DNA of 64,000 nucleotides from contig CM102290.1 in assembly GCA_046563655.1 (NCBI GenBank), positions 3,844,001 through 3,908,000 of the forward strand. Reading direction: 5' to 3'. Origin of the DNA: Yuukianura sp. NJ FZ-2021 (lineage: Eukaryota). The position numbers and the translations under genes were made by a program. Below the pieces are notes generated by a model. That model saw only the letters and a list, made by a program, of their open reading frames with translations. It ran no database searches and had not been told where the DNA came from. How positions within the stretch are numbered: position 1 is the stretch's first letter; every line of letters begins with the position of its first letter. Of this stretch, positions 1 through 14,827 are shown one piece after another.

Positions 1-3000
1 CATTATTCCACCGCTTACATTACAAATACCAAAGTAATTCCATTACTCAAAATTTGCCTTAATACCTGGCGTGCCAATTCATCAGCAAAAGCATCCAAAT
101 CCAAATCCTTCAATCTCTCCGGTGAAAGTAAAATCTCTTCCAGCGCCGTCGCTGGATTCGTATCTTCATCGTCTAAATCCAAAGCATCCACTGCCATTTT
201 GCGAGCCCATTCATACGTTTCTGGATGGACGCGAGAACTATCCAAAGCCTCAACATAGGCGTCCGTGCTGAAATAGATTAAAGCATCTCCATTTATAAAG
301 TTTTTCTAAACAATATTTTTCAAACTGAGATAAAAAAAAACATACCTATCGCCCAAAGCATTTGTGTCTATCTTGATAAATCCTGAACAATTGATAAATA
401 CTTTCGGCCCCATGTGACACAGTGTAATAAGTTGTGTTCTGTTTTCCAAGCGATGATTGTTTTGTTTCAATACCTGCCAAGTATTGCAAGTTATGATACA
501 AGTCTTGTGCTAAATACCAAAATATGCTTGTATTACTTTGAGTAGTTGCGTCGCTTTCCTTGGTCCAAGTCCACAAACAAATTGAAGAATATTGGCAGTA
601 TGAGGAAGAGCAATACAACGGTTGACATCCACTCCAACTTCGTTTACTCGATTGACAAATTCCAGTTGAAGGTATTCCAACAATTCTTCTCTTGGAACTT
701 GATCCTGAAAATGATTTCATAATTTCAGGAATTTCAAAAAAAAATTGCACTTGAAATTTTTTTGTGAAAATTTTTTGTCATACCTGTAGAGGATGATAGC
801 GGAGACACAGAATTTCGTCGTCGGCAGTGCATAGTTGAGAAAACTCGATCATAGCATCCTGTAACTTCCTTCCCAATGAAATCGCTTCTCGTAGTAAACT
901 AGGATATTCTCGAAAATCGTTCTAGAAAAAGTAATTAAACACCAATTAAATTAGCATTTAATAGTTCATAATGCAGTTTCAAAAAGCTTACCATTCCTTT
1001 GATTGAATTTGAATACACTTTGGATAACTGGTTGTCCAGAATTTCAACATTAATTATTGGAACTTTGTCTTCTTTGGCAATGTCCAGACATACAAACTTC
1101 ACATCATTTTGAATCATAATGGCATCCCGAGACTCTCCTCCAATCACAACTACATGCGGTTTCTTGAGCCGAATAAAATTCTTCAGTGCCACAAGGTCAG
1201 CCTCCTGAAAAACAAAAACAAAATCTTTAAGACTTTGATTAGAAAAACTCAAAAATTTAAAACTGCTCAGTTATATTACCTTTTCTATTCTATCCGATTC
1301 CCTGCCTGATTTGGTACTCTTTGTTATATTGGATAGACGTAAGTAATCAGACGGCTCTCCATCAACTCCAACAAAACATGCAAACGCAACTTGAGTCAAA
1401 TCCGGAACATAAGCAATTGCCAAGACCTTGATTCCTTTGGAAGTAATCCAATCTCCCTCTTCATCGTCTTCTGGAAGATCTGAAAATTCTGGATCATAAG
1501 GCTTAACCTATGGAAAAACCACATGTTATAAATTTCCGAACATTTCTTTATCAAATAACAAAATACCTCAAGCCATCCCCTTAGTTTAGCTGCCGCTGCT
1601 TCAAGAATATGATTTTTCGCTTGGGTCATTAATTTGACACGGAGTTCTTTCCTTAACGCTGGAAAAACATGTGTCTCCAGTGCTAATTCTATTGTTTCCC
1701 CACGGAGTTCATTCCAGAGTTGAACATTGGTCGTAAATTCATCCTAATAAGCATCGATCACAAACAAAAATAACGTTTATAACAATGAAAAGCAATTAAA
1801 CTTATGGACTTACCTTGTAATAAAGCTGCTTCACTTCATCAATATAGTTTCCCTGAGTTATGCCTTTGATAAACTCTGCAATTTTAACGTTGACAAGTCC
1901 ATCCTCCTCTGCAGTCGTAATTCGAAGAAACATGTCTCCACTGACCTCTCGCACCGGTTTTCCTTTTAGATATTTGACCCTGTCAAGGGCGAAATTCGGA
2001 TTTGAAAAAAAAATCTTTGTAAAAATTGATTTGATTTTGATAACATACGGATACAAAGGATGATTTTCATCAATTTCCTTGAGGCCTTTCTTAGTTGGCG
2101 TAACACTGATAGTAGCACGGTCAAACACCACTTCTCGAACTGCTTTTCTTAGTATTGGCTCTCGAGAAATTTGCATAGCCACCATATACTTCCCGGCCTT
2201 TATTACATCAGCGGCTGTCGGCAAACGTCTGTATCAGATTACAAAAATTAAACAAAAATCTGTCGATTTAGTCTTCTTTTTAAGAATTTATACTTACTTT
2301 GAGCAATAATCAGCGGCAGCTTCCAAAGGCTCAGCAGGATCCTGATCAACATCATTCTTCTGATAATTATCTCTTACATTTTCAGCAAACTTCTCTGGAG
2401 CTAGACCAAACTTTCTAGCAAATGAAGAAATTCCAATTCTCAAGCAAAGACCGTAGGTTCCACCCGTAACTTTTCGTTTCACGGCATTTGCTGGATCAGT
2501 CTCGTCGTCTCCATCGAGCAGTTCCGGATCCTCTTCCAGTGTAGTATCCAGCGTCGGATTCTCTGGATCCACTTCAGTCTGACGTGCTGTCCGAACACGT
2601 TCCTTTCGTTTCTTCACTTGATATTCACGCATGAGCGGTACATCTTTGTAATAGTACAAACTAAATTGCATGTAGGCGTCCTTAAGCTCCTCAGGAGTCT
2701 GAATCGTCTTGAGGTGTTCCATGTCTTTATCACTGATGATCCGCATGGTTTCTGGAATCGGGGCATTAGGATTACTCAAAATCAGGTTTGCCTGATACTC
2801 CCGCATCTTCTCAAAGAGAGCAGTGAGGTTGAGTTTCCTGGCTTTCAATTGACAGAATCTGCCATCCTCCCTGTAGATCGTCCAAAGATCATTGATGCTC
2901 AGTTCTGGCAGAACATACTCCTTGCGGTAGAAGGCGATGAATGGTACTTCAAGATTTTGATTTCGCATGAACTCCAGAGCTTTCCGTATCTTAGGGATGT

Positions 3001-5056
3001 ATCTGCTCTTGATTTCTTCAGCCGTTTGGTGCTGGAGAACTGGATTCGGGTGAAGTGAAGCAGGAACTACCGAGGTGCTCTTGTCCCAGTTATCATCGTC
3101 GAAGTTTGCAGTGCCAGCGGGTGGAGGAACAGTGGCTGGGGCTGCAGTAGGTGAACCTGGTTCGGGTTCTGGAGCATCCCAATCATCTGGATCATGAACC
3201 GCTGGAGCCTTCTTTTTGGCCGGAGCAGGAGGTGCTGGTGGTGGCATTGGTTGTGTGGCCATTGGCTGTGTCGGCGGGAGGTCCCAGTCCTCTTCATCGT
3301 CTGCTGCTGCTGGACGTGCGGCGGGTGCAGCAGCAGCAGGTTTTGGTGCTACGGGCTGCGGACGCGGAGGTGACGGAGCGGGAGCATCCCAATCATCTTC
3401 GTCAGCAGCCGCCGCCGGTTTGCTTGCGGTTGCAGTCGTTGTAGTTGGCGCCGGAGGATTGCGAGAGACTGGTTGTGTTGCATCTGCATCCCAATCGTCA
3501 CCGTCAGCGTCCCAGTTAGGCTCGGCTGCTGGTGCTGCAGTAGTAGAAGAAAAGTATTAGATTCAATTTCAACTTTTCTTACAAAAGACGAATTGAAAAA
3601 AAAAGTCTGACCTGACATCTCGACCGGTTCATGGTCATCTGAATTCCCATGCACATGTTCATGTTCAATAGGGTTTTGAAGAGTTTCTGGGCGATTCTTG
3701 AAGACTGTATCATAAATCCATTCCGCTTCTTCGTCCAATTCTTCGTCAGTAGCTGGCACAAGCGGAACAGTACGAAGTTGCATCCGTTCTGGTACATCTT
3801 GACTTCGAATTTTACTGTCTTCATCTGTAAACCCCGCTCTTTCCAACTCACTTGGCTCGTAAATTTCGTAAATTGATTTTGGTTTTCTTCTCTTCTTTGA
3901 AACCTTTTTAGTCGCCCTACGTTATTCAGTGGGAAAAGTTACAATGCTCTGAAACGACAAATTAAAGTTGATTAGCACTCACTTCTGATTCCGTTGATCC
4001 TCGTCCTCATATTCGTCCTCCTCTTCTTCTTCTTCTTCATCGTACTGGTCCTCATACTTTTCAAACTCATCATAATCAAAATCTACTCCAAATATATCTT
4101 GTGCTTCCTGTAACGTATGATCTGCGAAAATGGGTTTCCTCTTCTTTCGTTTATCTTTGAGAGGACGATCTTCGTCGTCAACAATGAAGCCGCCTTCTGA
4201 ATCGTCTCCTTCGGAATCCTCCGAAGCATCTTCCCTGTCAACTCGCCCGGAAGGTTGCTCCTCCTATTTAAGCATGTGTAAAGTTGAATATTAAGCTTAA
4301 CTACTATACAGTAAGTAAACCGACTTACGTTGTCGGAACCTTCGAATAGCTGACTAGGAGCAGCTTCACGGTCGTCTCCTCCATCTTGAGTTCCTTCATC
4401 GTCGGAATCTTCACCTTGGATGATTCGCCGTCGTTTCTAATTACCAAGTAATCAAAAGTTGAAAATCACTATAGAAAGTTTCACTATGAGTCAAACACTG
4501 AATCTACTAGTAGTTAACCTTTTGTATTTTCACTCCAAGATTTTCCTCAAGGAGGTCATAGTCTTCATCTTCCAGACGATCATCAAAATCTTCGTCATCT
4601 TCATCGTCACTTTTCTTTCTTTTTCTTGAACGATCTGATTCATTGTCACTATCTTCTTCAATTGGATTATCATCAATGAGGTCATTTACTTCCTCCCCAT
4701 CATCTGCAATCGAACATAAATAATTTCTAATCTCTCAGTAGACAAATATCACAAATACTATTCATGCAAGCATTAGCTATGGTACACCACTGGTATGTCC
4801 GATTTATGTGCTTAAATTAACAATCAAGTTTTAGCACTAAGGTAATCAATATTTCAATTCATACCTTCCTCCTCATCTTCATCACTCTCTACAATCTTCT
4901 TGACGTTTCTATGATGTGCAACAGGGACATCGTCCTACAAATGTTAACGACGCAATTACAATTAAGTACATGTACACCTTGACCTTATCCGGTTCAACTT
5001 ACATCCATTTGTTCGTCATCTGACTCCTCTGCTTCCGACTCCAGGAAGTCCGCCAT
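1..5056 (-). CDS. Spt6: Transcription elongation factor / histone chaperone Spt6, multi-exon, 3' part runs off the window
   Basis: ATG at 5056 gives [18 protein letters not shown] followed by a GTAAGT donor at 5002. Later exons give [74 protein letters not shown] and [20 protein letters not shown], all Spt6 signatures. Short GT-AG introns. Confidence 0.97.
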
Positions 5057-5704
5057 TACTACTGCCTACAAAGAGCCGAAGAACGATAACTAACCACCAC
5101 TAGTAACACTTAATGACGATCATCAATTAGTTATTTGGGCCAATGACCTCTCGTATTGAAAATCCTGCTAGGACATAGGAGGACTGTTTTCCAAATGTGG
5201 TGAATTCGGTTTTTTTTTTGTAACACCCGCGGCCGGACACAAGACTTCAAATTTAAAACTTTTTTGACTTTGACTTTGTTTCAAAATTATAAAACAGCGC
5301 CGTGAAATCAAATCCACAATTTGAAATTCCCGCTCTCTCAAAAGATCGTACCACTTTCCCCAAGTTAAAAAGAAATGCAGCAGAGGGGAGTGAGGAGATG
5401 GAGATGTTTTTTTTTCATTACTTTACGTGCTAATTAAATTACCTAACTATATTATATTAAATTTCGAATAACACATGTAACGTTATACAAGTTATGGTGT
5501 ATTTAATTAATTCTAATGCTTTTAATTACTTATCTACTAGTTTCGATAGTTGATTTTAGAGAACAAACCGCATAACACAAAGGTGTTGCTTTCTTCGGGC
5601 GTTTTTTCTATTTTTTTAAGTAAAAGTTTGTTTAGGTTTATTTTAGTTTCACAGTCACCTGCCAAAGGCAGGTTGAGAAAAGAAGAAGTAGGATTTATGT
5701 TAGA

Positions 5705-8700
5705 TTATAGTATGAATAACTCGTAGAGATCTTTTGCTGAGGGCAGGCTTCCCAAGATTGAGCAGGCGTTTCCGCGTTGAACAGCAAGGCTTATCCGTTG
5801 TAGCAAAAACGTTGTGGCTCGTTTATCGCCAGAGGCTTCTGACAGCCGATGTCCAATTTGTTTTAGTAGACGAAGGCCTTCGGATCCGAATACACCTGTA
5901 GTTTCGACTGCAATGATGGATACAATGAAGCGAGATTCTAGGTCCCGATAGAGTTGATGTTTGTGTGTCTCTGCCAATTCGGCTGCATGACCATAGTGGG
6001 ATGACGACGTCGTAAGGTAGGAATTTGCAAAGGTGTCACGGCAAGTAAAATCCCATGTGAGGCAGCGTCCAGAGCTCCAAGGAATGAGAGTTACACCGTC
6101 TGGCCGTTTACCATCTGATCTACAGCAACCGGCAGGTTCTTTAATTGATGGAAAGCCAGCGGTTTGCAATGATCTGAAGATTATGTCGTTGACAGAGTTG
6201 TGACGAGAGTGTCTTCCGGCGCTACGCTTACAGCTTAAGCCGTGGAGGCCGTTGCTTGACACCAGAGCACCACACGAGCATGTATGAGGTTGGCATATAT
6301 CAGCTCCTAGGCGAAGAGCACTAGAGATCCTAAAAGATTCGTCCGAAAGTAGAGTTCCAAGTTGTCCGGAGGGAATTGCGTGTAGCCAATCTCCTGAATG
6401 TGGTGCCGCGGCAGCCAGCAGTCTTGCTTTGTCGATAAGAGTTGAAGAGTTCTGAAGGAGAGAAGAAGAAATTTGCTTGAAGACTTGAATTTCCCAGAGG
6501 TTTTGTGATTTTACGTCCTGTGGAACAACGTAGCCCAATTGAGACCAGTTGAGCAACGCCAAATCCATTGAATTGTCGAATGGTGACAGGGAAGACGGAA
6601 GAAATGTAGAAATTAGCTCCGCACAGCTATGAACTGATGCCAAAAATGAGAATGTAGCGCAGTCCTTAGCGTGGCGAACTCCTAATCCGCCCAAGTTCAC
6701 CGGGAGACTTGACTGAGACCAAGCGTGTGAAGACAAAGTAGAGTTGAGAATCGATTCCATCACTGCACGTAGCGCACAATCGTATGCATCGAGAAGATCG
6801 GTTTCCAAGAACGAAGGAGCACATCGGAGGAAATATAGAAGTCTTGGGGTGGAAATTGAAGCTCGAAGTAGGTAGAACGCGATGTGGGCTGGTACATCCG
6901 ACAACTTGGATGAGAGTGACTTGAAACTCTCTGTTTTGCATTTGAGAATTCGACGAGACGATTCTTTGAAAAGAGGCGCTCCTAAAAGTTCAGCTTGATC
7001 AGGTTCAGGAAAGATGATGTCTGGAGAAACAGATTGGAATGATTGGACGATTGAGCGGGATTCATCTGCGTCTGCGCTTAGAATGATGACTTCACATTTC
7101 TTCGGGTTGAGTTCTAGTCCAAACGAAGAGGCTTCTCTTTGGATGTACTTGAGATTTTCGAGAACGACATCCGGAGTATCGGCAATCGTTGCGTCGTCCA
7201 AATACCAGATGTTGAAATCAGTGGTTAATGAAGAGGCCAATTGGTGAATGGTTAAAGCGAAAAGAGCAGGACCAAGGGGATCCCCCTGTTGCACTCCTAG
7301 TTTCGATTTGATGCAAGCAGAGTCGTAGTAGAGATCTGAATCGTGCGAATAAGCTTCAGAGACGAATTTGTAGAAGTCTGGAAGTATGGTCTTCACAATG
7401 TCCAGCATACGGTCTCTTCTAATTAAGTTGAAGGCATTGCGAAAGTCCATCTTGAGTAGAACCTTGGCAGAACCATGGTTGGCATTACAGAAGATTCTGG
7501 CAGCGTGGGCGACGGCTTCAGCACCATTCTTGATTCCAACGCCAACTTGGATCGGGCTTAAGGTTGAAGTAATGACATTCAACGAGTGAGATAGGATAAG
7601 TTTAGACACGAGGCGTCTCCAAGTAAGGCCGATTGCGATAGGACGAATACCTCCTTTCTTCTTTTGGATTGCTAATAGAGTTGCGCCAAAAAAAATTCGT
7701 CTCACTTCATCGGGAAGAGAACCATTTGTAATGAAGTTACACAATCCAGAAACTGATGCTAGAAGAGCTTCTCCTTCATCGCCTGAGGACTTTGAAGTTA
7801 GTTCCTTTAGAATCTGTGGACGAAAAGAGTCCAGGCCTCCGGCGGATCCATTTTGGAATGACGAGATGGCTTTGATGACGTGACAGTTTTCAAAGATAAC
7901 CTCAGATCTCGGAGGTGCGGCAGGAAACGAGGTTGGTAGTGGATGATCGGGATGCAATTGGTGGAGAATGTTCAAAGTATCAGAGTCTTTGGAGGCTATG
8001 CAATCTTCGGAGACCAGGATTCGAACTGCACCGCGTATATCCCCGTCGGCTAGTTTAGATTGAATGACCTTTGAGGAGTTACAGTGATGTGAGGACGGAT
8101 GATGGCCACGAGAGAATTGCTTGAATTGATGATGGGAGATGTTTGCAGGCGCCTCAGAAGTGATACGGCTAGCGTTTGTCTTCACCCATTTGGTTAGATT
8201 TGTGACAGCATCGTCTTTTGACGGAATGGGAAAAACTTGGTAGGGGAAGTAGAATAACTTTGCCCAAGAATCTGTAGAGTTGTGCTCGATTGCTTGGTCG
8301 ATGATGGTGGACAGGGCAGAGGCGGTCGTTCTTCTTGCTCCTTTTGGAATGTGTTTGAGTGTGGACGTAGATTTTCTTAAGTCAGCAAGCTTTAGCCCAA
8401 GAGAAGTTGTAGAGATATCTTCATTGGAAGGAGCGGACCAAGTGATGTCGAAGTAAGATTGTTGAGAATGTTTGCGTCCGCCGGCTCGTGTTTTGGTAAT
8501 GTTTGGAAAAGCTTTTAATAGTTTCAATCCAATTGTCGCGTCGGCTAAAGGTTTGATCTTCACATCAGAGCAAAAAGAATGGTATTTATCTTTTAGATCT
8601 TGTTTCTTGATCAAAGCTCCAGAAGCCTCCTGAATGTTGTTCTTGATCCAGTCGTCAGTTAGTTTAGAAATTTGTGATTTTGTTAAACACTTGGATGAGA

Positions 8701-9796
8701 AGCTGGAATCTGCTTCATTGGTAGCACGAACTGGTGAAAAGTTGGAAGCGTCATCATTAGTAGCACGAACTGATGAAAAGTTGGGAGCAGCTTCATTGGT
8801 AGCACGAGCTGATGAAAAGTTGGAAGAGTCTTCGTTGGCAGCGGTATCTGATGAAAAGTTGGAAGCGTCTTCATTTGTAGCACGAACTGATGAAAAGTTG
8901 GAAGCAGCTTCGTTGGTAGCACGAACTGATGGAAGTTTGGAAGCATCTTCATTGGTAGCACGAGCTGATGAAAAGTTGGAAGCGTTTTCATTTGTAGCAC
9001 GAACTGATGAAAAGTTGGAAGCAGCTTCGTTGGTAGCACGAACTGATGAAAAGTTACAAGAGTCTTCGTTGGCAGCAGTATCTGATGAAAAGTTGGAAGC
9101 GTCTTCATTTGTAGCACGAACTGATGAAAAGTTGGAAGCAGCTTCGTTGGTGGCACGAACTGATGAAAGTTTGGAAGCATCTTCATTGGTAGCACGAACT
9201 GATGAAAAGTTGGAAGCAGTTTCTTTGGTAGCACGAACTGATGAAAAGTTGGAAGCGTCTTCATTGATAGCAGGGACTGATGAAAAGTTGGGAGCGGCTT
9301 CATTGGTAACACGAACTGATGAAAAGTTGGAAGAGTCTTCGTTGGCAGCAGTATCTGATGAAAAGTTGGAAGCGTCTTCATTTGTAGCACGAACTGATGA
9401 AAAGTTGGAGGCAGCTTCGTTGGTGGCACGAACTGATGAAAGTTTGGAAGCATCTTCATTGGTAGCACGAACTGATGAAAAGTTGGAAGCAGTTTCTTTG
9501 GTAGCACGAACTGATGAAAAGTTGGAAGCGTCTTCATTGATAGCAGGGACTGATGAAAAGTTGGGAGCGGCTTCATTGGTAACACGAACTGATGAAAAGT
9601 CGGAAGAGGTTTTGCTGGCAGCAGGAACTGATGAAAGTTTGGAAGCATCTTCATTGGTAGCACGAACTGCTGAAAAGTGGGAAGCGTCTTTGTTGTTTGT
9701 TGAAGCAGAAGCACCGGAATCGAAGTGATTTGATGTAGTAGGAGTTGCCATGGAAATTGATTTCATTTTACTTCGATTTCTTAATTTTCGCTGCAT
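5705..9796 (-). CDS. Retrotransposon ORF (~1363 aa from first ATG): 13-aa repeats, RFX-like winged helix, reverse transcriptase, Zn knuckle, PD-(D/E)xK endonuclease
   Basis: RT motifs AGGLD, KKKGGIRPIAIG, QVGVG, DFRNAFN, GVQQGDPLGP, WYLDD, GLELNPKKC, LLGAP. C-terminal CSCG..HGLSC, RHSRHN, KRPDG..WDFT..E.HK and LQRISLAVQRGNA are typical of CRE-clade RLE elements. The reading frame stays open up to 9988 (TTG). Confidence 0.93.
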   Translation of the reverse strand: MQRKLRNRSKMKSISMATPTTSNHFDSGASASTNNKDASHFSAVRATNEDASKLSSVPAASKTSSDFSSVRVTNEAAPNFSSVPAINEDASNFSSVRATKETASNFSSVRATNEDASKLSSVRATNEAASNFSSVRATNEDASNFSSDTAANEDSSNFSSVRVTNEAAPNFSSVPAINEDASNFSSVRATKETASNFSSVRATNEDASKLSSVRATNEAASNFSSVRATNEDASNFSSDTAANEDSCNFSSVRATNEAASNFSSVRATNENASNFSSARATNEDASKLPSVRATNEAASNFSSVRATNEDASNFSSDTAANEDSSNFSSARATNEAAPNFSSVRATNDDASNFSPVRATNEADSSFSSKCLTKSQISKLTDDWIKNNIQEASGALIKKQDLKDKYHSFCSDVKIKPLADATIGLKLLKAFPNITKTRAGGRKHSQQSYFDITWSAPSNEDISTTSLGLKLADLRKSTSTLKHIPKGARRTTASALSTIIDQAIEHNSTDSWAKLFYFPYQVFPIPSKDDAVTNLTKWVKTNASRITSEAPANISHHQFKQFSRGHHPSSHHCNSSKVIQSKLADGDIRGAVRILVSEDCIASKDSDTLNILHQLHPDHPLPTSFPAAPPRSEVIFENCHVIKAISSFQNGSAGGLDSFRPQILKELTSKSSGDEGEALLASVSGLCNFITNGSLPDEVRRIFFGATLLAIQKKKGGIRPIAIGLTWRRLVSKLILSHSLNVITSTLSPIQVGVGIKNGAEAVAHAARIFCNANHGSAKVLLKMDFRNAFNLIRRDRMLDIVKTILPDFYKFVSEAYSHDSDLYYDSACIKSKLGVQQGDPLGPALFALTIHQLASSLTTDFNIWYLDDATIADTPDVVLENLKYIQREASSFGLELNPKKCEVIILSADADESRSIVQSFQSVSPDIIFPEPDQAELLGAPLFKESSRRILKCKTESFKSLSSKLSDVPAHIAFYLLRASISTPRLLYFLRCAPSFLETDLLDAYDCALRAVMESILNSTLSSHAWSQSSLPVNLGGLGVRHAKDCATFSFLASVHSCAELISTFLPSSLSPFDNSMDLALLNWSQLGYVVPQDVKSQNLWEIQVFKQISSSLLQNSSTLIDKARLLAAAAPHSGDWLHAIPSGQLGTLLSDESFRISSALRLGADICQPHTCSCGALVSSNGLHGLSCKRSAGRHSRHNSVNDIIFRSLQTAGFPSIKEPAGCCRSDGKRPDGVTLIPWSSGRCLTWDFTCRDTFANSYLTTSSSHYGHAAELAETHKHQLYRDLESRFIVSIIAVETTGVFGSEGLRLLKQIGHRLSEASGDKRATTFLLQRISLAVQRGNACSILGSLPSAKDLYELFIL
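8705..9679 (-). repeat. Coding minisatellite, 25 x 39 bp (consensus peptide NFSSVRATNEDAS)
   Basis: 25 units counted in the translation. Units 3-9 and 10-16 are near-identical, a 273-bp higher-order duplication. Confidence 0.97.
9744..9757. promoter_or_regulatory. RFX X-box-like motif 1 (ATTTCCATGGCAAC on minus strand)
   Basis: GTTGCCATGGAAAT on +. Its reverse complement fits the X-box consensus RYYNYY-WW-RRNRAC. Confidence 0.55.
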
Positions 9797-9803
9797 CGTA
9801 ATT

Positions 9804-9817
9804 GTTGCTATGGAGAT
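9804..9817. promoter_or_regulatory. RFX X-box-like motif 2 (ATCTCCATAGCAAC on minus strand)
   Basis: GTTGCTATGGAGAT on +. Fits the same consensus, 7 nt upstream of the ORF's first ATG and exactly 60 bp from motif 1. Confidence 0.55.
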
Positions 9818-11137
9818 GAAGTGAAGGTTGAATGTAGTTGTTGAAAACTTTGTAACTGTTGAAGGAGCGAATGTGACTGGGTGTCCAAGTGACGAAACAG
9901 GTCCGCTAAGGCCGGATTGGTCACGTAATTTTGTGAAACTTATCACAAGTTGACCAGCACAACTAGCTCTGCCAGATGATATGAGCAAAAGGAGGATAGT
10001 TCACTAAGTAAAGCCTAAAAAAAACTGAAAAATGTGGAGCGAATTTTTCGTGACTTTCTGTTGTTGTGTTAAAAAAGTTTGTTGTTTTTTGCTATTTTTT
10101 TTAAATTCGTTTTTAATTCCACACTTTAGAGACTAATTAACTAACATCATCTGGATTTTTTTTTTGTTAAATGTGTGGATTTTAAAATTCTACGAAAAGG
10201 AAGTAAATCTCAATTCTACTGTGTACTAGAGGAGAGGCGATACTACCAAATTCCTTGGATAGAAAATGCTACCTACGTATTAACTATTAAGTCTACAGGC
10301 TGGAATTTTTAGAAATAAATTGAGCAGGGTGAAAAACGATAATCAAAATAGCTGCTTTCGTGACCTTCATTTTTTGCGCTTTGATTTCTAGGTAATTACT
10401 AATTAATGTTAATGTTTTCTTTGATTATCGTCACCCACCAACACTTCAGTCCACCATGAGCTGTTGCCAACGTCATCCGCTGTGGGAGGTGCCTGAACTC
10501 GAACAGGAGCCAATCAAGAAGTGCCAACTCTACTTTAGGCAAGTTCCTGTCTAGATTGCATAAGGAATCCATAAGTTTCTCTCTTCAAGTAGTCAATTCA
10601 CAATGTACATACTGAAGGTAGTTTAGGTAAACTAGCGAGTGACTCACAGTCACTGATCACACGATTTTCACGAAAGACCATTGTAGGGTCAGTTCATATC
10701 CTGATGTTGCAGTTTATACGCAAGGATCCACTTTCTTTTGCGTCAGTATCTAAGTGCCAGGCACTCAGCCAACAGTAGCTAGCGGCTAGCCGTACTCGAT
10801 GTTATTAAAAGTCTCAAACTTGTCACATTCAGCAACAGTTTCCTTCTGGCACATCCCAACACTACTGGGTTAGCCTAACCATCTCTGAGAGGTCAACGAA
10901 ACAAAGACACCGCTTGTTTTCCAGGTAAACTTAACACTATTTGGATAACTGTCGTTTGTGCTTGCCTTTTAACACGAATGTTATATTGATCGTTTGCTGT
11001 TGTAAAATTCATAAGCAGAAGGACCAAAGGGAAACATGTATCTGATTCAGCAAGGTGGGCGGAATAGGAAGGAATCGCTGATTCCACTCAGAAGCAATCT
11101 GGAAGATCTCAAGATTGAAATTCTGGATGTCAATACG

Positions 11138-12313
11138 ATGAGCGGTTTCACAGTGATTGACAGCGGATATGAAGAAGTAGTTGAAGTTGTCACATCGGAT
11201 TCTCCTTCAGAAGATGGAAGCAGTAGACCAAGGAAGCGAGCTAAACTAGATCACCTTACTGCTGAACAGAAAGCCCAACACAGAAAAATGATGAATCGAA
11301 TTTCAGCTCAGAGTGCAAGAGACAGACAAAGAGCCCTTATGATTCAGCAAGAAGACAACCTCAAAAAATTATCTACTTCAGTAAGTTTAACATTAACTTT
11401 ACTTGTTTTTATGATTTGGGGTACGAATGTGCCAATTCATTTGTTTCTTTGTTTTCAGTTTGAGCAAATCAAGGAGGAGAACAAATCACTGAAAAAGAAA
11501 AACGAGAGTTTGGTTTCAGAAAATTCCTCGTTGAAGTCTCTGGCTGCTGAAAACGAAAAGCTGAAGAGTTACATCAAAGACTTGGAGTCTAAACTGAAGA
11601 CTGTCACGGAGTCCCATGAGAAATGTACGGACGTTTCACGTAGTGTATCAATTGAGAGCAGTTGCACTCCTTCGGAGCCTGCTGTGCCCATTTCTGTTCC
11701 TCTGCCGAAGGGACTGGAGATGCAACTGATTTTGATTTTCACTCTACTGATATGGAAGTACTCGAATGGGATCTTGACGCTCCAGAAATTCTCAGAGCTT
11801 TGGAAGACTTTTCGCAGACAATCCTCAGTCAGGACACGAAGCTCACAACTTTTGAGGAAGTAAGTACAAAATCAATTTGACAACCAAAATAACACCAATT
11901 GCATCATAACTAATCCCTTCCTTGTCTTTTAGATTATCGACACAGAAAAGCATGGAGGACTTTGTGTTGAAATGGTTCCAGGAGTATCAGCGTCAGAAAC
12001 CGCCGGACTTATTCCCGAAACAGTCCAGCCCCTGATGCCGCCTGAAACATTAACAAACAACGTTAAAGCAGAGGAGAGGTCAACTGACCCTGACACCAAA
12101 GATTTGTTACCCACCGATGAACCAGACTTCTACTACAGTTTCTCTCCGTCTGCCCTTGCCACATCCCCCTCTTCTTACTCTGACACCATGACACCACCCC
12201 ATTTGACCGAAGCAATCACCCTCATGGACAAGCAACACAGCTTCCATGATGCCTATGACGCCCTCGCATGGGAGTCACCCTATTCGGAAGAACTGTTTCC
12301 CGAGTTGAATTAA
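11138..12313 (+). CDS. Xbp1: X-box binding protein 1 (bZIP UPR factor); spliced form join(11138..11380,11459..11681,11705..11859,11933..12313), 333 aa
   Basis: bZIP RKRAKLDHLTAEQKAQHRKMMNRISAQSARDRQR. GT-AG introns at 11381-11458 and 11860-11932. Removing 23 nt shifts into an acidic frame ending WESPYSEELFPELN, like the XBP1s C-terminus. An upstream in-frame ATG at 11036 is also possible. Confidence 0.93.
11682..11704 (+). other. IRE1-type unconventional 23-nt intron
   Basis: Two 7-nt CNGCNGN loops: CTG|CTGT (11679-11685, bulged stem GGAGC/GCCC) and CTG|CCGA (11702-11708, stem GTTCCT/AGGGAC). Excision joins the frames correctly. Confidence 0.92.
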
Positions 12314-12632
12314 TTTATTTTCACTCTTTCTCTAAATTAACTTTCGTTCTAAGAAGATCATTCCTTTTCAATTTACTTTGTTATAACGTCTTAAAGAGAA
12401 ACTTAATTTTCAAATACTAAATATTTAGTCCAGAAAGATACGTACGTTATCTAAAAAAAAAAGCGTTTGAAATCTGGTTTTCAATTGGTAGAAACTACCA
12501 AACACAAATTCGGCTCATTGCTTTCCCTGGTTTAAAAAATAAAGGAAGCACTGCAGCTAAAAACTAAGTTTCAGATTAATATGAATTTTTTTTTAATTAA
12601 TGTTTTATTTTTTTTAGGTTCCACGTCAGTAG

Positions 12633-12838
12633 GGTTGAGGTAGTGATTAACGACTGTCATTGTCGCCGCATGGTGTAGCCAATTTACGGCTACAATGGGT
12701 GGCTACGCTGTTCAGCTACTTGTGTTGCCAGTTTAGGTTGAAGTGGCTACAAATGTCGCCACTAGGTGTAGCCCCTATTGTAGCCGGAGTGGCTGCAACT
12801 TGCGGCTACAATGACGATCGTTAAACCTTATCTCGACC
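12633..12838. mobile_element. MITE, family A (GGTYGAG.. termini, internal TGTAGCC/GGCTACA sub-repeats)
   Basis: 38-bp imperfect terminal inverted repeats (30/38 by eye); no TSD visible; related copy at 31804. Confidence 0.75.
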
Positions 12839-13008
12839 GAACCTAAGCTTTGATCCCAATGTTCTTTAGTCCCATTCTTACCAACTTGTAGAATTCACGC
12901 TTATGGTTTTCGCATTAGTGACCTGCTACGTTTTCAATCATTTCCGTAAAGTAACAGTTTATTTTTCATAAAAAATTAAGGTATTAATTAACGTTGTCAT
13001 CTGTAGAC

Positions 13009-14827
13009 TTAGGTATTAGTAGCTTCAGTGACGTTCTGTCGTTTCCGCATCATCTTCAGTGCTTCCTTCTTGCGTTTCCCACGACTCTCCATCATCCTCT
13101 TGTACATACGTTTATGCTTGTTCCGGATCATCATCACCCTTAAACGATACTCCTCCTTCGTCTCCTCTTCTTTCTGCTTCAATTCATCAACATCCTCCGG
13201 TTGTGCTCTTTCCACAGCCATAGCAACTGGTTCATCCGATCCATCTTCCTTAACCTTTGACTTCTTCTTCGTCTTCTTCACAACTGCAGGCAAAGTAGTT
13301 TCCAGTTCACCAGCACTCTTCTTCCCCTCAGTCGAAAACACTTCATCCGTAGTTATAATGCCCTTCTCCATGTCCAAGAACTTCCGCTTCTCAGCTGGTA
13401 CGTAGTCTCCCTCTCGTTCAACTGCAAATGGAGATACATGTGGTGGTAGAATGGCTCCCTGGAAGTACTTGTCTACTGGCAATAGCGTAGTGGCATTGAT
13501 AGAGTCAAAGACCCATTGTGGCTGGATGTAATATCTGGACAAGTATGTCTTCCCTCCAGTTCCTGATGGGTCTCGATCAACAATTTGATGTGTAATGGTC
13601 TCATCACTTTCGTCAAAGCTGGCTCCAGGAAATACTTCCTTGTCCCAAGATACTTGAGCACCAAAGGCACGGAGACAAAGTGTAAGGGACTCCCTGGGTA
13701 CTTCACGATTCAGAAAGACCTTGAGGCCATTGAATAGGCTCTTGAGTCGCTTGATTCTCTCGGCTTCCTTCTTCAATTCGGCAATCTTTTCATTGTTTCC
13801 TTCCTCCAGTGTAAATTCGTCCATTTCTGTCCCAGTTGCATCTTGACTCTGATCTTCAATGTGAATGATGGACTGATTGAGAGAAGCAATACGTTCACCT
13901 AACATTTCCTCTTCAGTTGTATCTTCTGTAACCTTTAGGGTGGATGTGAGTTTCGGAGGGTAGCAAATGTTGGCGCCATTGTAAAGTCGAAAATTGATAA
14001 ATCCAAGTAACGTACTGTAGAATTCCACGAAAGTGGCCATGATCCTAAAATCAACGGCTTCTGGAGATTGGGGCAAAAATCCAAACGTGTGAGGCATGAT
14101 CCATGTGACAGTTTGTCCTTTGATGTCCGCTTGGTAGTAGTAGCCTTTAATTGATACAAAGACTTTACGAAGAGATCGAGTCTCAATGAGGTAATGTAGA
14201 AATTCAAGGGAGAGACGACGACAAAGGGCTGAAACTCCACCCGGAACGAATCTCATACTTGGAAATGTTGAAAACAGGAAGCAGAGGGTGAGACAGTCAT
14301 CAAGATCTCGAATAGCGTCGATGAACGTTGGATATCTCTCTTTGACGATATGATCCAACGAGTAGGTTGGCTTTGCTTCTGCAATTCGTTTCATACCTTC
14401 ATAGTCACGGGTAGCCCGAGCTCTGGCTTTCTTGCGCAAGTAGACTTTATGTTCCCGGAGTTTCCAGACAATTGGTTCATGGAGGAGGAATTGTATGTCT
14501 TTCTTCAAGTACAAAGTTTTCTTGTCCGTTGATCCTTGTTGCGCTCGTCGACGATTTTTCGGTTCACGGGGATAGATGCCTTTGAGAATACAAAGTCGTC
14601 GAAACATCTTGAGACTCAGCTGAAGTTTCCGAAGGGCCTGCTTCCTTGTAAGGTACAAAGCTCCTTCCCCCGATTCATACTGCAAATTTCAATCATCAAT
14701 TATTAATTGAACATTTATCATCAAAGCTTCGCCGACCGGTCAGGCTAGAAATTTTAGAACTCTATAAGTGATTTAACATTTAAAGTGTTTGTAGAACACC
14801 ACTTACCTTCTTTTTCATTTTCCCCAT
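13009..14827 (-). CDS. PES1: Pescadillo homolog (PeBoW ribosome biogenesis, BRCT); join(14807..14827,13009..14679), 563 aa
   Basis: MGKMKKK|YESGEG...KLQLSLKMFRRLCILKGIYPREPK, LDHIVKERYPTFIDAIRDLDDCL, BRCT-like FLNREVPRESL...ITHQIVDR...YIQPQWVFDSIN. Confidence 0.97.

What the first reader, a model, noticed from the sequence alone, without database searches (positions are those of the whole stretch)
8432..8659. CRE-like retrotransposon with an RFX-type winged-helix domain in place of N-terminal zinc fingers
Seen: between the repeats and the RT the ORF reads TDDWIKNNIQEASGALIKKQDLKDKYHSFCSDVKIKPLADATIGLKLLKAFPNITKTRAGGRKHSQQSYFDITWSA. By eye this aligns without gaps over 76 aa to the human RFX1 DNA-binding domain as I recall it (about 19 identities), keeping the W..N...A.G, Y...C...P, G......F and R.G.R..S...Y pattern, including both wing arginines. 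No C2H2 finger is visible upstream of the RT. Known: RLE-clade elements (R2, NeSL, CRE) normally use N-terminal zinc fingers, with or without Myb, to bind DNA. Inference: the element captured a host or viral RFX-like domain as a new targeting or regulatory module. I know of no described RFX-RT-RLE architecture, though I cannot search to confirm.
Basis: partly seen in the sequence, partly recalled or inferred. Interest (0 to 1): 0.9.

Follow-up and report, generated by a model that had tools for sequence, protein, structure and literature searches.

The report
Active retrotransposon carrying an RFX domain
This is an intact, recently inserted jumping gene of the R2-like (restriction-endonuclease) LINE type whose DNA-binding front end is an RFX-type winged helix instead of the usual zinc fingers, a natural swap of the probable targeting module that I could not find described in print.

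Summary
Residues 448-520 of the minus-strand ORF (nt 8441-8659) match Pfam RFX_DNA_binding above the curated cut-off (45.9 bits, cut-off 27, E 9e-12). An AlphaFold model (pLDDT 88.8) superposes on RFX5 and RFX1 at TM 0.90, rmsd 1.2 A.

The ORF also has an RT and a C-terminal CCHC knuckle plus restriction-like endonuclease. That C-terminal part matches only R2 proteins at E <= 0.001 in the PDB fold search.

Public assemblies hold the empty site: contigs join 5621 to 10073 with 11 shared letters. This defines a 4,440-bp element (5633-10072) with an 11-bp target-site duplication. The insertion is polymorphic and the family is multicopy.

The RFX domain is not an accident of this copy. 15 of the 120 best relatives have it, including Folsomia candida proteins named 'RFX-like transcription factor daf-19'. 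All 15 lie in one 27-row clade, whose other full-length members carry a C2H2-like finger at that position.

The domain is closest to cellular RFX5/7-type domains, not to viral D5-type winged helices. No X-box lies near the insertion.

The clade (CRE, HERO or NeSL) could not be tested. No paper found describes the architecture. Verdict: new variant of a known kind.

The parts
5633..10072 (-). Whole retrotransposon copy, 4,440 bp, with no LTRs
   Evidence: Empty-site contigs in runs X2 and X3 join 5621 to 10073. They skip 4,451 nt, and 11 letters fit either side. Summed contig depth inside is roughly 10-70 times that of the flanks.
5622..5632 (.). Target-site duplication, copy at the element's 3' side (AAAAGTTTGTT on the + strand)
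   Evidence: Identical 11-mer at 10073-10083. The empty-site joint has 'both = 11'.
10073..10083 (.). Target-site duplication, copy at the element's 5' side
9797..10072 (-). 5' UTR, 276 nt, from the element's 5' end to the first ATG
   Evidence: Element end. First ATG at 9796-9794.
5705..9796 (-). Single ORF, 1,363 codons from the first ATG, plus the stop codon
   Evidence: There are no internal stops.
8694..9690 (-). 39-nt x 25.6 tandem array, translated as 13-aa Ser/Asn/Ala-rich repeats in the N-terminal extension
   Evidence: TRF score 1318, 81% matches, no indels. Contigs of all four laid runs leave this copy at 8690 with one shared different sequence, so the array is not shared by most copies.
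8441..8659 (-). RFX-type winged-helix DNA-binding domain (ORF-frame residues 448-520)
   Evidence: Pfam PF02257, 45.9 bits against a cut-off of 27. PDB RFX5 and RFX1 sequence hits. AF2 model with Foldseek TM 0.90 to both. High-depth contigs cover 8122-8690 with 1-4 differences in organisms A and B.
7049..7669 (-). Reverse transcriptase domain (residues 778-984), with a YLDD active-site motif
   Evidence: Pfam RVT_1, E 6.5e-19. D-D is nearly invariant in 54 rows.
6230..6280 (-). CCHC zinc knuckle (C1241, C1243, H1253, C1257)
   Evidence: C, H and C are invariant and C1243 is at least 90% conserved in the 54-row alignment.
5948..6205 (-). Restriction-like (PD-(D/E)xK) endonuclease core: RH..N, E1288-P, P-D1301-G, W-D1317, K1347
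   Evidence: Invariant columns. AF2 pLDDT 95.0. The seven Foldseek PDB hits at E <= 0.001 are all R2 retrotransposon proteins, E 5e-6 to 1e-4.
5633..5704 (-). 3' UTR, 72 nt, with a 7-bp hairpin at 5657-5673 and a short A-rich tail. There is no long poly(A).
   Evidence: RNA fold -13.4 kcal/mol, z -4.16, and 0 of 200 shuffles fold as well. Other copies leave this one at 5647-5649, just past the hairpin (table 7).

Best explanation
The locus is a full-length, coding-intact, recently inserted copy of a multicopy non-LTR retrotransposon of the RLE type. It has one ORF. Its layout is: disordered repeat extension, RFX winged helix, linker, RT, CCHC knuckle, PD-(D/E)xK endonuclease.

It presumably moves by target-primed reverse transcription, as R2 does. 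The protein binds its own RNA, probably through the conserved 3'-UTR hairpin. It nicks the target, primes cDNA synthesis from the nick, and leaves an 11-bp duplication.

In R2, N-terminal zinc fingers and Myb hold the complex on target DNA. This lineage has an RFX5/7-like winged helix instead. My reading is that the RFX domain is the element's double-stranded-DNA anchor during integration.

The domain was acquired once from a cellular RFX gene near the base of a clade found in springtail-like hexapods, and in some descendants it was later exchanged for a C2H2-like finger. This copy landed in an AT-rich gap between the divergent SPT6 and bZIP genes, with no X-box nearby. So the domain does not impose canonical X-box targeting here.

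Shown: the domain identities, element boundaries, duplication, polymorphism, multicopy state and clade distribution. Inferred: the TPRT steps, the RNA-hairpin role and the DNA-anchoring role of the RFX domain.
For: - Domains: Pfam RVT_1 and RFX_DNA_binding sit in one ORF. The RFX fold has TM 0.90 to RFX5 and RFX1. The RLE fold matches only R2 proteins at E <= 0.001, 7 of 7. The CCHC and E/D/D/K columns are invariant in 54 rows.
- Mobility: empty-site contigs in 2 of the 4 laid runs (X2, X3) join 5621 to 10073 with an 11-nt overlap. A second empty haplotype joins 5606 to 10097 in X2. Depth inside the element is far above the flanks. The ORF is intact.
- RFX is part of the element: it lies inside the TSD-bounded unit. 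High-depth contigs with 1-4 differences cover 8122-8690 in runs of two coded organisms.
- Distribution: 11 of the 120 listed relatives carry PF02257 in the precomputed Pfam column. 15 of 120 match my own profile, 12 of them being training rows. 11 of the 26 clade relatives reach the Pfam cut-off and 2 more fall below it. All 16 RFX rows, the query included, fall in one 27-row group (support 98, 96).
- Constraint: W16 and F63 are 16 of 16, Y38 and P64 are 15 of 16, and wing R70 is 13 of 16, at only 19-39% identity over the aligned 100-aa RFX piece.
- DNA-binding mode: RFX1 binds the major groove mainly with wing W1 (PMC6212790, passages read). The wing here carries K68, R70, R74, K75 and H76.
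- Cellular source: the best PDB sequence hit is RFX5. Of 72 representative hits scanned, 25 carry RFX5_N, 4 carry BCD_RFX and none carries RVT_1. Viral D5/primase winged helices match less well, with TM 0.47-0.73 and 6-22% identity.
Against: - No experiment or DNA-docking test shows that the domain binds DNA or steers integration.
- No canonical X-box lies within 300 bp of the empty site. There is only one half-site, 276 bp away (the X-box consensus is recalled). A targeting role would therefore need a different specificity.
- The recognition-helix Lys after the conserved Gly (K in 12 of 16 rows) is Leu in this copy. The second wing Arg is kept in only 8 of 16 rows, with Lys in one more.
- Three 3'-junction loose ends carry different AT-rich flanks, which suggests weak or no site specificity.
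- The RFX label needs at least 4 changes of state on the tree, so the history is not a clean single gain.
- Depth figures are summed contig depths, not copy numbers.
Confidence: 0.62

Rival explanations
1. The RFX domain is real and selected, but it is not the target-DNA anchor. It could bind the element's own promoter or 5' region. It could compete with or mimic host RFX5/7 factors, tether the RNP to chromatin or nucleosomes, or bind RNA. On this view target choice is left to the endonuclease and the linker.
For: - No X-box lies at or near the insertion.
- The different AT-rich flanks suggest low site specificity.
- The closest solved relative, RFX5, was solved bound to a nucleosome (title of 8zjr).
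- Many RFX-bearing relatives also carry a PHD finger, and one a SAP domain, upstream. As recalled knowledge, these are chromatin- or DNA-tethering modules.
Against: - The domain occupies exactly the slot of the C2H2-like finger in sister elements.
- In R2, the only RLE element with structures, the N-terminal fingers and Myb contact target DNA (PMC13580325 passages; titles of the R2 entries).
- Only 8 X-box half-sites occur inside the element, against about 17 expected from length, and there is no full X-box. Self-promoter binding through an X-box is therefore not supported.
Confidence: 0.25
2. The fusion is accidental: a retrotransposon landed in or next to a host RFX gene, or an assembly or gene model joined the two. 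On this view the RFX segment is host sequence, not part of the mobile unit.
For: NCBI and UniRef name Folsomia relatives 'RFX-like transcription factor daf-19' and 'RFX-type winged-helix domain-containing protein'. This is what one would see if they were host genes.
Against: - The empty allele lacks the whole 4,440 bp, the RFX part included. The 11-bp duplication brackets it.
- The RFX region has the high depth of the RT region, not the flank depth, in runs of two organisms.
- RFX and RT lie in one frame without stops.
- The same order recurs in 15 relatives at 41-52% identity.
- No RFX5_N or BCD_RFX host-type companion domain is present.
Confidence: 0.03
3. The RFX domain is a decaying relic in this copy. 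It would be inherited but no longer functional, with activity depending only on the RT and RLE domains.
For: - This copy has Leu where most relatives have the helix-3 Lys.
- P0003, one of the two nearest relatives in the trees, has lost part of the wing and scores below the Pfam cut-off at 18.9 bits.
- The upstream repeat array is copy-specific.
Against: - This copy scores 45.9 bits, among the higher scores in the clade (range 29.5-79.6 for those above the cut-off).
- The model is confident, with pLDDT 95-96 across the core.
- Copies in two organisms differ by only 1-4 letters over 345-758 nt there.
- The insertion is recent and the ORF is intact.
Confidence: 0.1

Closest known systems
R2 elements (R2Bm, R2Tg and others; PDB 8gh6, 9dou, 9nl2)
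   Same: - Single ORF with a central RT, a C-terminal CCHC knuckle and an RLE. The C-terminal fold matches R2 proteins at E 5e-6 to 1e-4.
- An N-terminal nucleic-acid-binding module sits ahead of the RT.
- No long poly(A) tail.
   Different: - The RT sequence similarity is marginal (phmmer E 0.0027 to 9nl2_A).
- Pfam finds no Myb or C2H2 finger; an RFX winged helix is present instead.
- The insertion is in an AT-rich intergenic spacer, not 28S rDNA.
HERO, NeSL/Utopia and CRE clades of RLE non-LTR retrotransposons (Repbase classification, as summarised in PMC4640811)
   Same: - RLE architecture.
- HERO is described as holding many non-site-specific families (PMC4640811 passages), which fits the varied AT-rich flanks here.
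- Variable accessory domains are known in NeSL/Utopia: 1-3 zinc fingers, a Ulp1 protease and RNase H.
- One relative in the wider family bears the automatic NCBI name 'SLACS protein' (P0048).
   Different: - No reference sequences of these clades were available, so the RT phylogeny, which is the defining criterion, was not run.
- CRE, SLACS and NeSL target spliced-leader genes and Utopia targets U2 genes. This copy does neither.
- None of the passages I read mentions an RFX or winged-helix module.
Cellular RFX transcription factors, RFX5/RFX7 group
   Same: The DNA-binding domain matches in sequence and in fold. Among the library's closest domains, many carry RFX5_N: 25 of the 72 scanned.
   Different: There is no RFX5_N or BCD_RFX dimerisation domain. 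The domain is fused to RT and RLE and lies in a mobile, multicopy, polymorphic unit.
[quoted passage not shown]
   Same: Arthropod RLE elements without Myb. They insert at dispersed sites, and N-terminal finger number is changed by recombination (section 3.4 read).
   Different: - BLAG proteins carry 1-2 CCHH fingers and a 'Blag' bipartite motif between finger and RT.
- By eye I saw no match to that motif in this ORF's linker; this was not scored.
- BLAG was placed next to the R2 superclade, whereas this RT is only marginally similar to R2.

Membership tests
RLE-type non-LTR retrotransposons (R2 group: CRE, R2, R4, NeSL, HERO) | Single ORF with a central LINE-type reverse transcriptase | tested here: met
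   RVT_1 at E 6.5e-19, residues 778-984. One stop-free frame.
RLE-type non-LTR retrotransposons (R2 group: CRE, R2, R4, NeSL, HERO) | C-terminal CCHC knuckle followed by a PD-(D/E)xK restriction-like endonuclease, with no APE domain | tested here: met
   C1241, H1253 and C1257 are invariant and C1243 is at least 90% conserved; E1288, D1301, D1317 and K1347 are invariant in 54 rows. AF2 pLDDT is 95 and the top 7 PDB fold hits are R2 proteins. Pfam reports no APE domain.
RLE-type non-LTR retrotransposons (R2 group: CRE, R2, R4, NeSL, HERO) | Insertion footprint of target-primed reverse transcription: no LTRs, a target-site duplication, and an empty site recoverable | tested here: met
   Empty-site contigs and an 11-bp duplication.
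CRE clade (CRE1/2, SLACS, CZAR) | RT groups with CRE references in a phylogeny | not testable with these tools
   No named CRE, NeSL, R4 or HERO sequences could be fetched. The only hint is an automatic NCBI name, 'SLACS protein', on a distant relative (P0048).
CRE clade (CRE1/2, SLACS, CZAR) | Site-specific insertion into spliced-leader genes | tested here: not met
   This copy lies in an AT-rich spacer between SPT6 and a bZIP gene. Other copies show different flanks.
R2 clade | N-terminal zinc finger(s) plus Myb, with a 28S rDNA target | tested here: not met
   Pfam finds neither domain. The RT matches R2 at only E 0.0027. The target is not rDNA.
HERO clade | RT groups with HERO references; mostly non-specific insertion | tested here: inconclusive
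   The phylogeny was not possible. Dispersed AT-rich flanks fit the description of HERO in PMC4640811, but they are not diagnostic.
RFX DNA-binding domain (Pfam PF02257) | Profile match above the curated gathering score | tested here: met
   45.9 bits for the piece and 39.5 bits in the whole ORF, against a cut-off of 27.
RFX DNA-binding domain (Pfam PF02257) | RFX-type winged-helix fold with a basic wing W1 | tested here: met
   TM 0.90 and rmsd 1.2 A to 8zjr_M and 1dp7_P. The wing carries K68, R70, R74, K75 and H76.
RFX DNA-binding domain (Pfam PF02257) | Binds X-box DNA | not testable with these tools
   No DNA-binding assay or protein-DNA predictor was available. No X-box lies near the insertion.
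RFX transcription factors (cellular) | Companion domains (RFX5_N, or the BCD_RFX dimerisation region) in a single-copy host gene | tested here: not met
   Pfam reports neither domain. The segment is multicopy and lies inside a TSD-bounded mobile unit.

The most novel reading that the evidence does not exclude
RLE retrotransposons retarget themselves in nature by swapping whole DNA-binding modules. In this lineage the RFX winged helix sets where the element lands: for example promoter-proximal, nucleosome-linked or AT-rich sites such as the SPT6/bZIP spacer here, rather than a repeated gene.

A corollary follows. Retrotransposon-borne RFX domains may circulate between genomes and seed host genes. 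That would explain both the proteins with 3-5 tandem RFX domains that are the closest library matches and the scattered RFX hits outside opisthokonts and amoebozoans noted by Coyle et al. (PMC10530576).
Probability: 0.15. Interest if true: 0.85.

Novelty: new variant of a known kind. Interest (0 to 1): 0.62.

Why it matters
- **Engineering precedent.** RLE elements such as R2 are being engineered for gene insertion by changing what holds them on DNA. This is a natural, apparently active lineage in which the zinc-finger slot is filled by an unrelated fold. It shows the scaffold tolerates such swaps and offers a ready-made alternative module to test.
- **Annotation trap.** Retrotransposon ORFs in Folsomia candida are named as RFX/daf-19 transcription factors. 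This can inflate or distort censuses of the RFX family.
- **Traffic between host and element.** A cellular transcription-factor DNA-binding domain has been taken into a mobile element. Such elements could in principle also hand domains back to host genes.
- **A usable experimental start.** The copy is intact, bounded, polymorphic and multicopy. That makes it unusually suitable for retrotransposition and DNA-binding assays.

Tried and rejected
- **Whole-genome search.** No genome is held for this window, so copies and insertion sites could not be catalogued. Only one copy lies in the window.
- **Word-index search with the RFX part alone** (residues 440-530). 36 candidates were found and none scored, so it was uninformative.
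- **ESM Atlas look-up.** It returned only unnamed RVT_1 or PHD clusters at scores of 0.90 or below. It gave no clade name.
- **Earlier scan notes.** Nothing was found for this genome, this sequence or these words.
- **Clade assignment.** The literature passages read gave descriptions but no sequences I could use. BLAG was considered and set aside.
- **X-box targeting.** The window holds one full match to the recalled consensus, at 20176, 10 kb from the element. There is none in the element or within 300 bp of the empty site.
- **Viral origin of the domain.** D5/primase-type winged helices match less well than cellular RFX. Pox_D5 Pfam overlaps are seen on cellular-type RFX proteins too.
- **Expression.** No RNA holder was listed among the runs, which is no evidence either way.
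- **Cluster look-up of ten RFX-bearing relatives.** It gave no organism names.
- **Fell et al. 2025.** The paper is not held, and its supplementary inventory was not seen.
- **Complex prediction.** Not used, because no protein-protein claim is made.
Full report
**1. What is at the coordinates**

The stretch lies in a single stop-free frame, 5705-10000. The first ATG is at 9796, giving a 1,363-codon ORF.

Pfam finds two domains in this ORF:
- RVT_1 at residues 778-984, E 6.5e-19.
- RFX_DNA_binding (PF02257) at residues 448-520, E 8.6e-10. The 76-aa piece alone scores 45.9 bits against a curated cut-off of 27, E 9.2e-12.

Pfam reports no C2H2, Myb, PHD or APE domain for this ORF.

phmmer against PDB sequences gives RFX5 (8zjr_M) at E 7.5e-8 and the RFX1 DNA-binding domain (1dp7_P) at E 1.5e-3.

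I modelled 100 residues around the domain with a 16-row alignment. The model has mean pLDDT 88.8, and 95-96 across the core. In Foldseek against the PDB only two chains pass E 0.001: RFX5 (TM 0.90, rmsd 1.2 A, 28% identity) and RFX1 (TM 0.90, rmsd 1.2 A, 23% identity). The next hit is a PadR-like regulator at E 0.05.

**2. The rest of the protein**

The last 252 residues were aligned with 53 relatives. I picked these 53 by hand, to span the trees, from the 120 listed.
- Invariant columns include C1241, H1253 and C1257. C1243 is at least 90% conserved. Together these form a CCHC knuckle.
- Further invariant columns are H1267 and N1271 (with R1266 at least 90% conserved), E1288-P, D1301-G, W-D1317 and K1347.
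- The AlphaFold model has pLDDT 95.0.
- All seven PDB fold hits at E <= 0.001 are R2 retrotransposon proteins, E 5e-6 to 1e-4. Cap-snatching endonucleases and Prp8 follow at E > 0.01.

This is a restriction-like-endonuclease (RLE) LINE. In sequence, however, the RT is only marginally like R2 (E 0.0027 to 9nl2_A).

Upstream of the RFX domain lies a 39-nt x 25.6 tandem array (8694-9690). It is translated as 13-aa Ser/Asn/Ala-rich repeats.

**3. Boundaries, mobility and copy number**

No genome is held for this window, and the window has only this one copy.

I laid Logan contigs of four public DNA runs on 5300-10400. Runs X1-X3 are one sample of coded organism A. Run X5 is coded organism B, from another study.

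*Empty site.* One contig in X2 and one in X3 join 5621 directly to 10073. They skip 4,451 nt, and 11 letters fit either side. This is the empty site. It matches the 11-mer AAAAGTTTGTT that I had found at 5622-5632 and 10073-10083.
- The element is therefore 5633-10072, 4,440 bp, with an 11-bp target-site duplication.
- The 5' UTR is 276 nt and the 3' UTR is 72 nt.
- The insertion is polymorphic in the sampled material.
- A second, diverged empty haplotype joins 5606 to 10097 with 39 other letters between (X2).

*Depth.* Summed contig depth is 29-62 (X1) or 206-344 (X2) in the flanks. Over most of the RT-RLE-RFX part it is 470-1,550 (X1) or 2,500-15,000 (X2), with many variant letters. The tool warns that this is not a copy number. 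It does show a family of diverged copies.

*The RFX region in other copies.* Contigs with 1-4 differences cover the RFX region in both organisms:
- X1: 8122-8690.
- X2: 8337-8681.
- X5: 7933-8690.

*The repeat array in other copies.* All four runs have contigs that leave this copy at 8690 with one and the same different sequence. Most copies therefore keep the RFX domain but not the 39-nt array.

*The 3' end.* At the 3' end, other copies leave this one at 5647-5649 and continue into at least three different AT-rich sequences.

*3'-UTR hairpin.* The 3' UTR folds into a 7-bp hairpin at 5657-5673. Its energy is -13.4 kcal/mol, z -4.16, and 0 of 200 shuffles fold as well. It lies just inside the part that copies share.

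*Expression.* No RNA run was listed, which says nothing about expression.

**4. Where it landed**

- Downstream on the same strand are SPT6 exons. HTH_44 of SPT6 scores E 2.4e-15, and an HHH_9 match lies further on.
- Upstream on the other strand is an ORF with a weak bZIP match (E 9.8e-4, below the cut-off). I take it to be XBP1-like, from recall.
- Beyond that lies a single-ORF pescadillo gene (E 7.7e-111).
- The element thus sits in the spacer between two divergently oriented genes, about 0.55 kb upstream of what I read as the SPT6 start.
- The reconstructed empty site is 73% A+T over 100 bp, against 61% for the window.
- Using the recalled X-box consensus (GTNRCC, 0-3 N, RGYAAC), there is no full match within 300 bp and only one half-site, 276 bp away.
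- The element holds 8 half-sites, against about 17 expected from its length, and no full site.

Canonical X-box targeting is not supported for this copy.

**5. Relatives**

A search with residues 440-1431 found 605 proteins at E <= 0.001 among 7,999 scored candidates. The best 120 are listed, at 38-52% identity.

*How many carry RFX.*
- Eleven of the 120 carry PF02257 plus PF00078 in the precomputed Pfam column.
- Three of these are from the springtail Folsomia candida. Their automatic names are 'R2DM pol polyprotein', 'RFX-like transcription factor daf-19' and 'RFX-type winged-helix domain-containing protein'.
- My own phmmer search found 12 of 120.
- A profile built from those 12 plus the query found 15 of 120. 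The three additions are P0008 (E 4.7e-12), P0026 (2.3e-7) and P0019 (1.9e-4). The other 12 are training rows.
- A fresh Pfam scan of the 26 relatives in the clade described below gave 11 at or above the cut-off (29.5-79.6 bits). Two fell below it (P0003 at 18.9 bits, P0026 at 20.6 bits). Thirteen had no RFX hit.

*Where they sit in the tree.*
- In a FastTree of all 121 RT-RLE cores, all 16 RFX rows, the query included, lie in one 27-row group with support 98.
- An IQ-TREE quick run used 46 rows: the 37-row neighbourhood plus 9 outgroup rows that I picked. The other 75 rows were left out. It gave the same 27-row group at SH-aLRT 96.

*The 11 rows of that group without RFX.*
- Five are N-terminally cut gene models: P0013, P0016, P0017, P0021 and P0029.
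- Six are full-length. Five of them (P0010, P0022, P0020, P0023, P0011) have a C2H2-like Cys/His motif where the RFX domain would be; P0012 shows only a partial Cys/His remnant there. Pfam did not call these fingers, apart from a sub-threshold zf-Di19 match in P0020.
- With the five cut rows set aside, the tree needs at least 4 changes of the RFX state. This fits one gain near the base plus about three later replacements, but the direction is not shown.

*Other N-terminal modules.*
- Six RFX-bearing relatives also have a PHD finger upstream, and P0027 has a SAP domain as well.
- Elsewhere in the wider family the precomputed Pfam column lists PHD, OTU, UCH, C2H2 and SAP.

The N-terminus of this family is modular.

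**6. Is the domain under constraint, and where did it come from**

*Constraint.* Across the 16 RFX rows, identity to the query over the aligned 100-aa piece is 19-39%. Conservation at key positions is as follows:

| Position | Conservation |
|---|---|
| W16 | 16 of 16 |
| F63 | 16 of 16 |
| Y38 | 15 of 16 |
| P64 | 15 of 16 |
| Wing R70 | 13 of 16 |
| Wing R74 | 8 of 16, plus one Lys |
| Helix-3 G56 | 12 of 16 |
| Helix-3 Lys at position 57 | 12 of 16; this copy has Leu |

RFX1 reads the major groove mainly with wing W1, helped by helix 3 in the minor groove (PMC6212790, passages read). The wing here is basic: K68, R70, R74, K75 and H76.

*Source.* A phmmer pass of the 100-aa piece over 1.84 billion representatives gave 81 hits at E <= 0.001. 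I scanned 72 of the 80 new ones with Pfam; the last 8 were not scanned.
- 69 of 72 have PF02257.
- 25 also have RFX5_N.
- 4 have BCD_RFX.
- None has RVT_1.
- The three without PF02257 are low-complexity or bacterial surface proteins.
- The very best hits are proteins with 3-5 tandem RFX domains and no RT.

Against predicted viral structures, the model matches D5/primase-type winged helices at TM 0.47-0.73 and 6-22% identity. This is clearly weaker than the match to cellular RFX5 and RFX1. The most likely donor is a cellular RFX5/7-type gene.

**7. Host**

The flanking pescadillo protein is closest, among named proteins, to the springtails Orchesella dallaii (61%), O. cincta (60%) and Allacma fusca (59%). 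Insects follow at 49-55% over the full length. The only named hosts of RFX-bearing relatives are also springtails (Folsomia candida). I infer a springtail-like hexapod host and take it no further.

**8. Mechanism**

*Shown:*
- the domain set;
- the TSD-bounded unit;
- the empty allele;
- the multicopy family;
- retention of the RFX domain across copies and across a clade.

*Inferred from what is established for R2* (structure titles; review passages):
- The protein binds its own RNA. I propose this happens through the conserved 3' hairpin.
- It nicks the target with the RLE.
- It primes cDNA synthesis from the nick.
- It is held on flanking DNA by its N-terminal module, which here is the RFX winged helix.

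I put 0.62 on this reading. The main rival (0.25) is that the domain serves chromatin tethering, host-factor mimicry or self-regulation rather than target anchoring. A relic domain (0.10) and an accidental fusion (0.03) are much less likely; the empty allele and the depth profile contradict the accidental fusion.

**9. Comparison with the known, and novelty**

This is a member of the RLE LINEs. Every defining feature I could test was met.
- It is not R2: no Myb or finger, not in rDNA, and only a marginal RT match.
- It does not behave like CRE, SLACS or NeSL, which target spliced-leader genes.
- Its dispersed AT-rich insertion fits the description of HERO.
- The defining test, an RT tree with Repbase references, could not be run. 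The 'CRE-like' label stays open.

I searched the full-text library for these combinations:
- RFX with 'non-LTR retrotransposon': 7 papers, none relevant by title and abstract.
- RFX with 'restriction-like endonuclease' and 'retrotransposon': 0 papers.
- RFX with 'R2 retrotransposon': 1 paper, a CRISPR review.
- 'winged helix' with 'restriction-like endonuclease' and 'non-LTR': 0 papers.
- 'RFX DNA-binding domain' with 'reverse transcriptase': 5 papers, none relevant by title and abstract; passages of one (PMC10530576) were read and are unrelated.

Hassan et al. 2026 (PMC13188248) contains none of the terms RFX, winged or PHD. Fell et al. 2025 is not held. I saw neither its supplements nor Repbase.

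On this evidence the architecture is undescribed in print, though it is present in databases and misnamed there. I rate it a new variant of a known kind, with interest 0.62.

Noticed in passing
P0123-P0131 (not in the window): The closest library matches to the element's RFX domain are proteins of about 870-1,090 aa with 3-5 tandem RFX_DNA_binding domains and no RT (Pfam totals of 243-293 bits). What they are, and whether they relate to the retrotransposon lineage, is unknown.
   Followed up: partly
P0006, P0014, P0018 (Folsomia candida): Retrotransposon ORFs with RFX, RT and RLE carry automatic names such as 'RFX-like transcription factor daf-19' and 'RFX-type winged-helix domain-containing protein'. 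These are probably misannotations and could distort RFX-family counts.
   Followed up: partly
window 8694-9690: A 39-nt x 25.6 tandem array is translated as 13-aa repeats. It is specific to this copy or subfamily: contigs of all four runs diverge at 8690 into one shared different sequence. Joints inside the array suggest length variants. The Folsomia relative P0018 also has an unrelated N-terminal repeat array ahead of its RFX domain.
   Followed up: partly
window 5606-5632 and 10073-10107: The target is itself a short imperfect repeat: a T-rich block, the 11-mer, then the T-rich block again. A second empty-site haplotype with 39 different letters exists in run X2.
   Followed up: partly
window 5657-5673: A 7-bp hairpin in the 72-nt 3' UTR (z -4.16) lies just inside the point where other copies diverge (5647-5649). 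It is a candidate RNA recognition element.
   Followed up: partly
window 5680: A 3-nt deletion in the 3' UTR is carried by a large share of the family's contigs in all four runs (table 4). This suggests subfamilies.
   Followed up: no
window 1-5080 (-), 11015-12313 (+), 13009-14688 (-): The flanking host genes are SPT6 (spliced), a bZIP ORF that looks XBP1-like (weak Pfam match, label recalled) and a pescadillo gene in a single 559-codon ORF.
   Followed up: partly
window 10470-10560: The spacer upstream of the bZIP gene holds a CCAAT box and a TGACGT-like motif, seen by eye. If the gene is XBP1-like, this could be an ER-stress-type promoter element. The element's 5' end lies about 400 bp from it. 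It was not scored.
   Followed up: no
window 20176: This is the only full match to the recalled X-box consensus in the 64-kb window (GTAGCCTAGGTAAC). It is 10 kb from the element.
   Followed up: no
relatives listed: The wider family shows many different N-terminal additions in the precomputed Pfam column: PHD, PHD_Pygo, SAP, OTU, UCH, otubain-like and C2H2. This is an unusually modular front end for one LINE family.
   Followed up: partly
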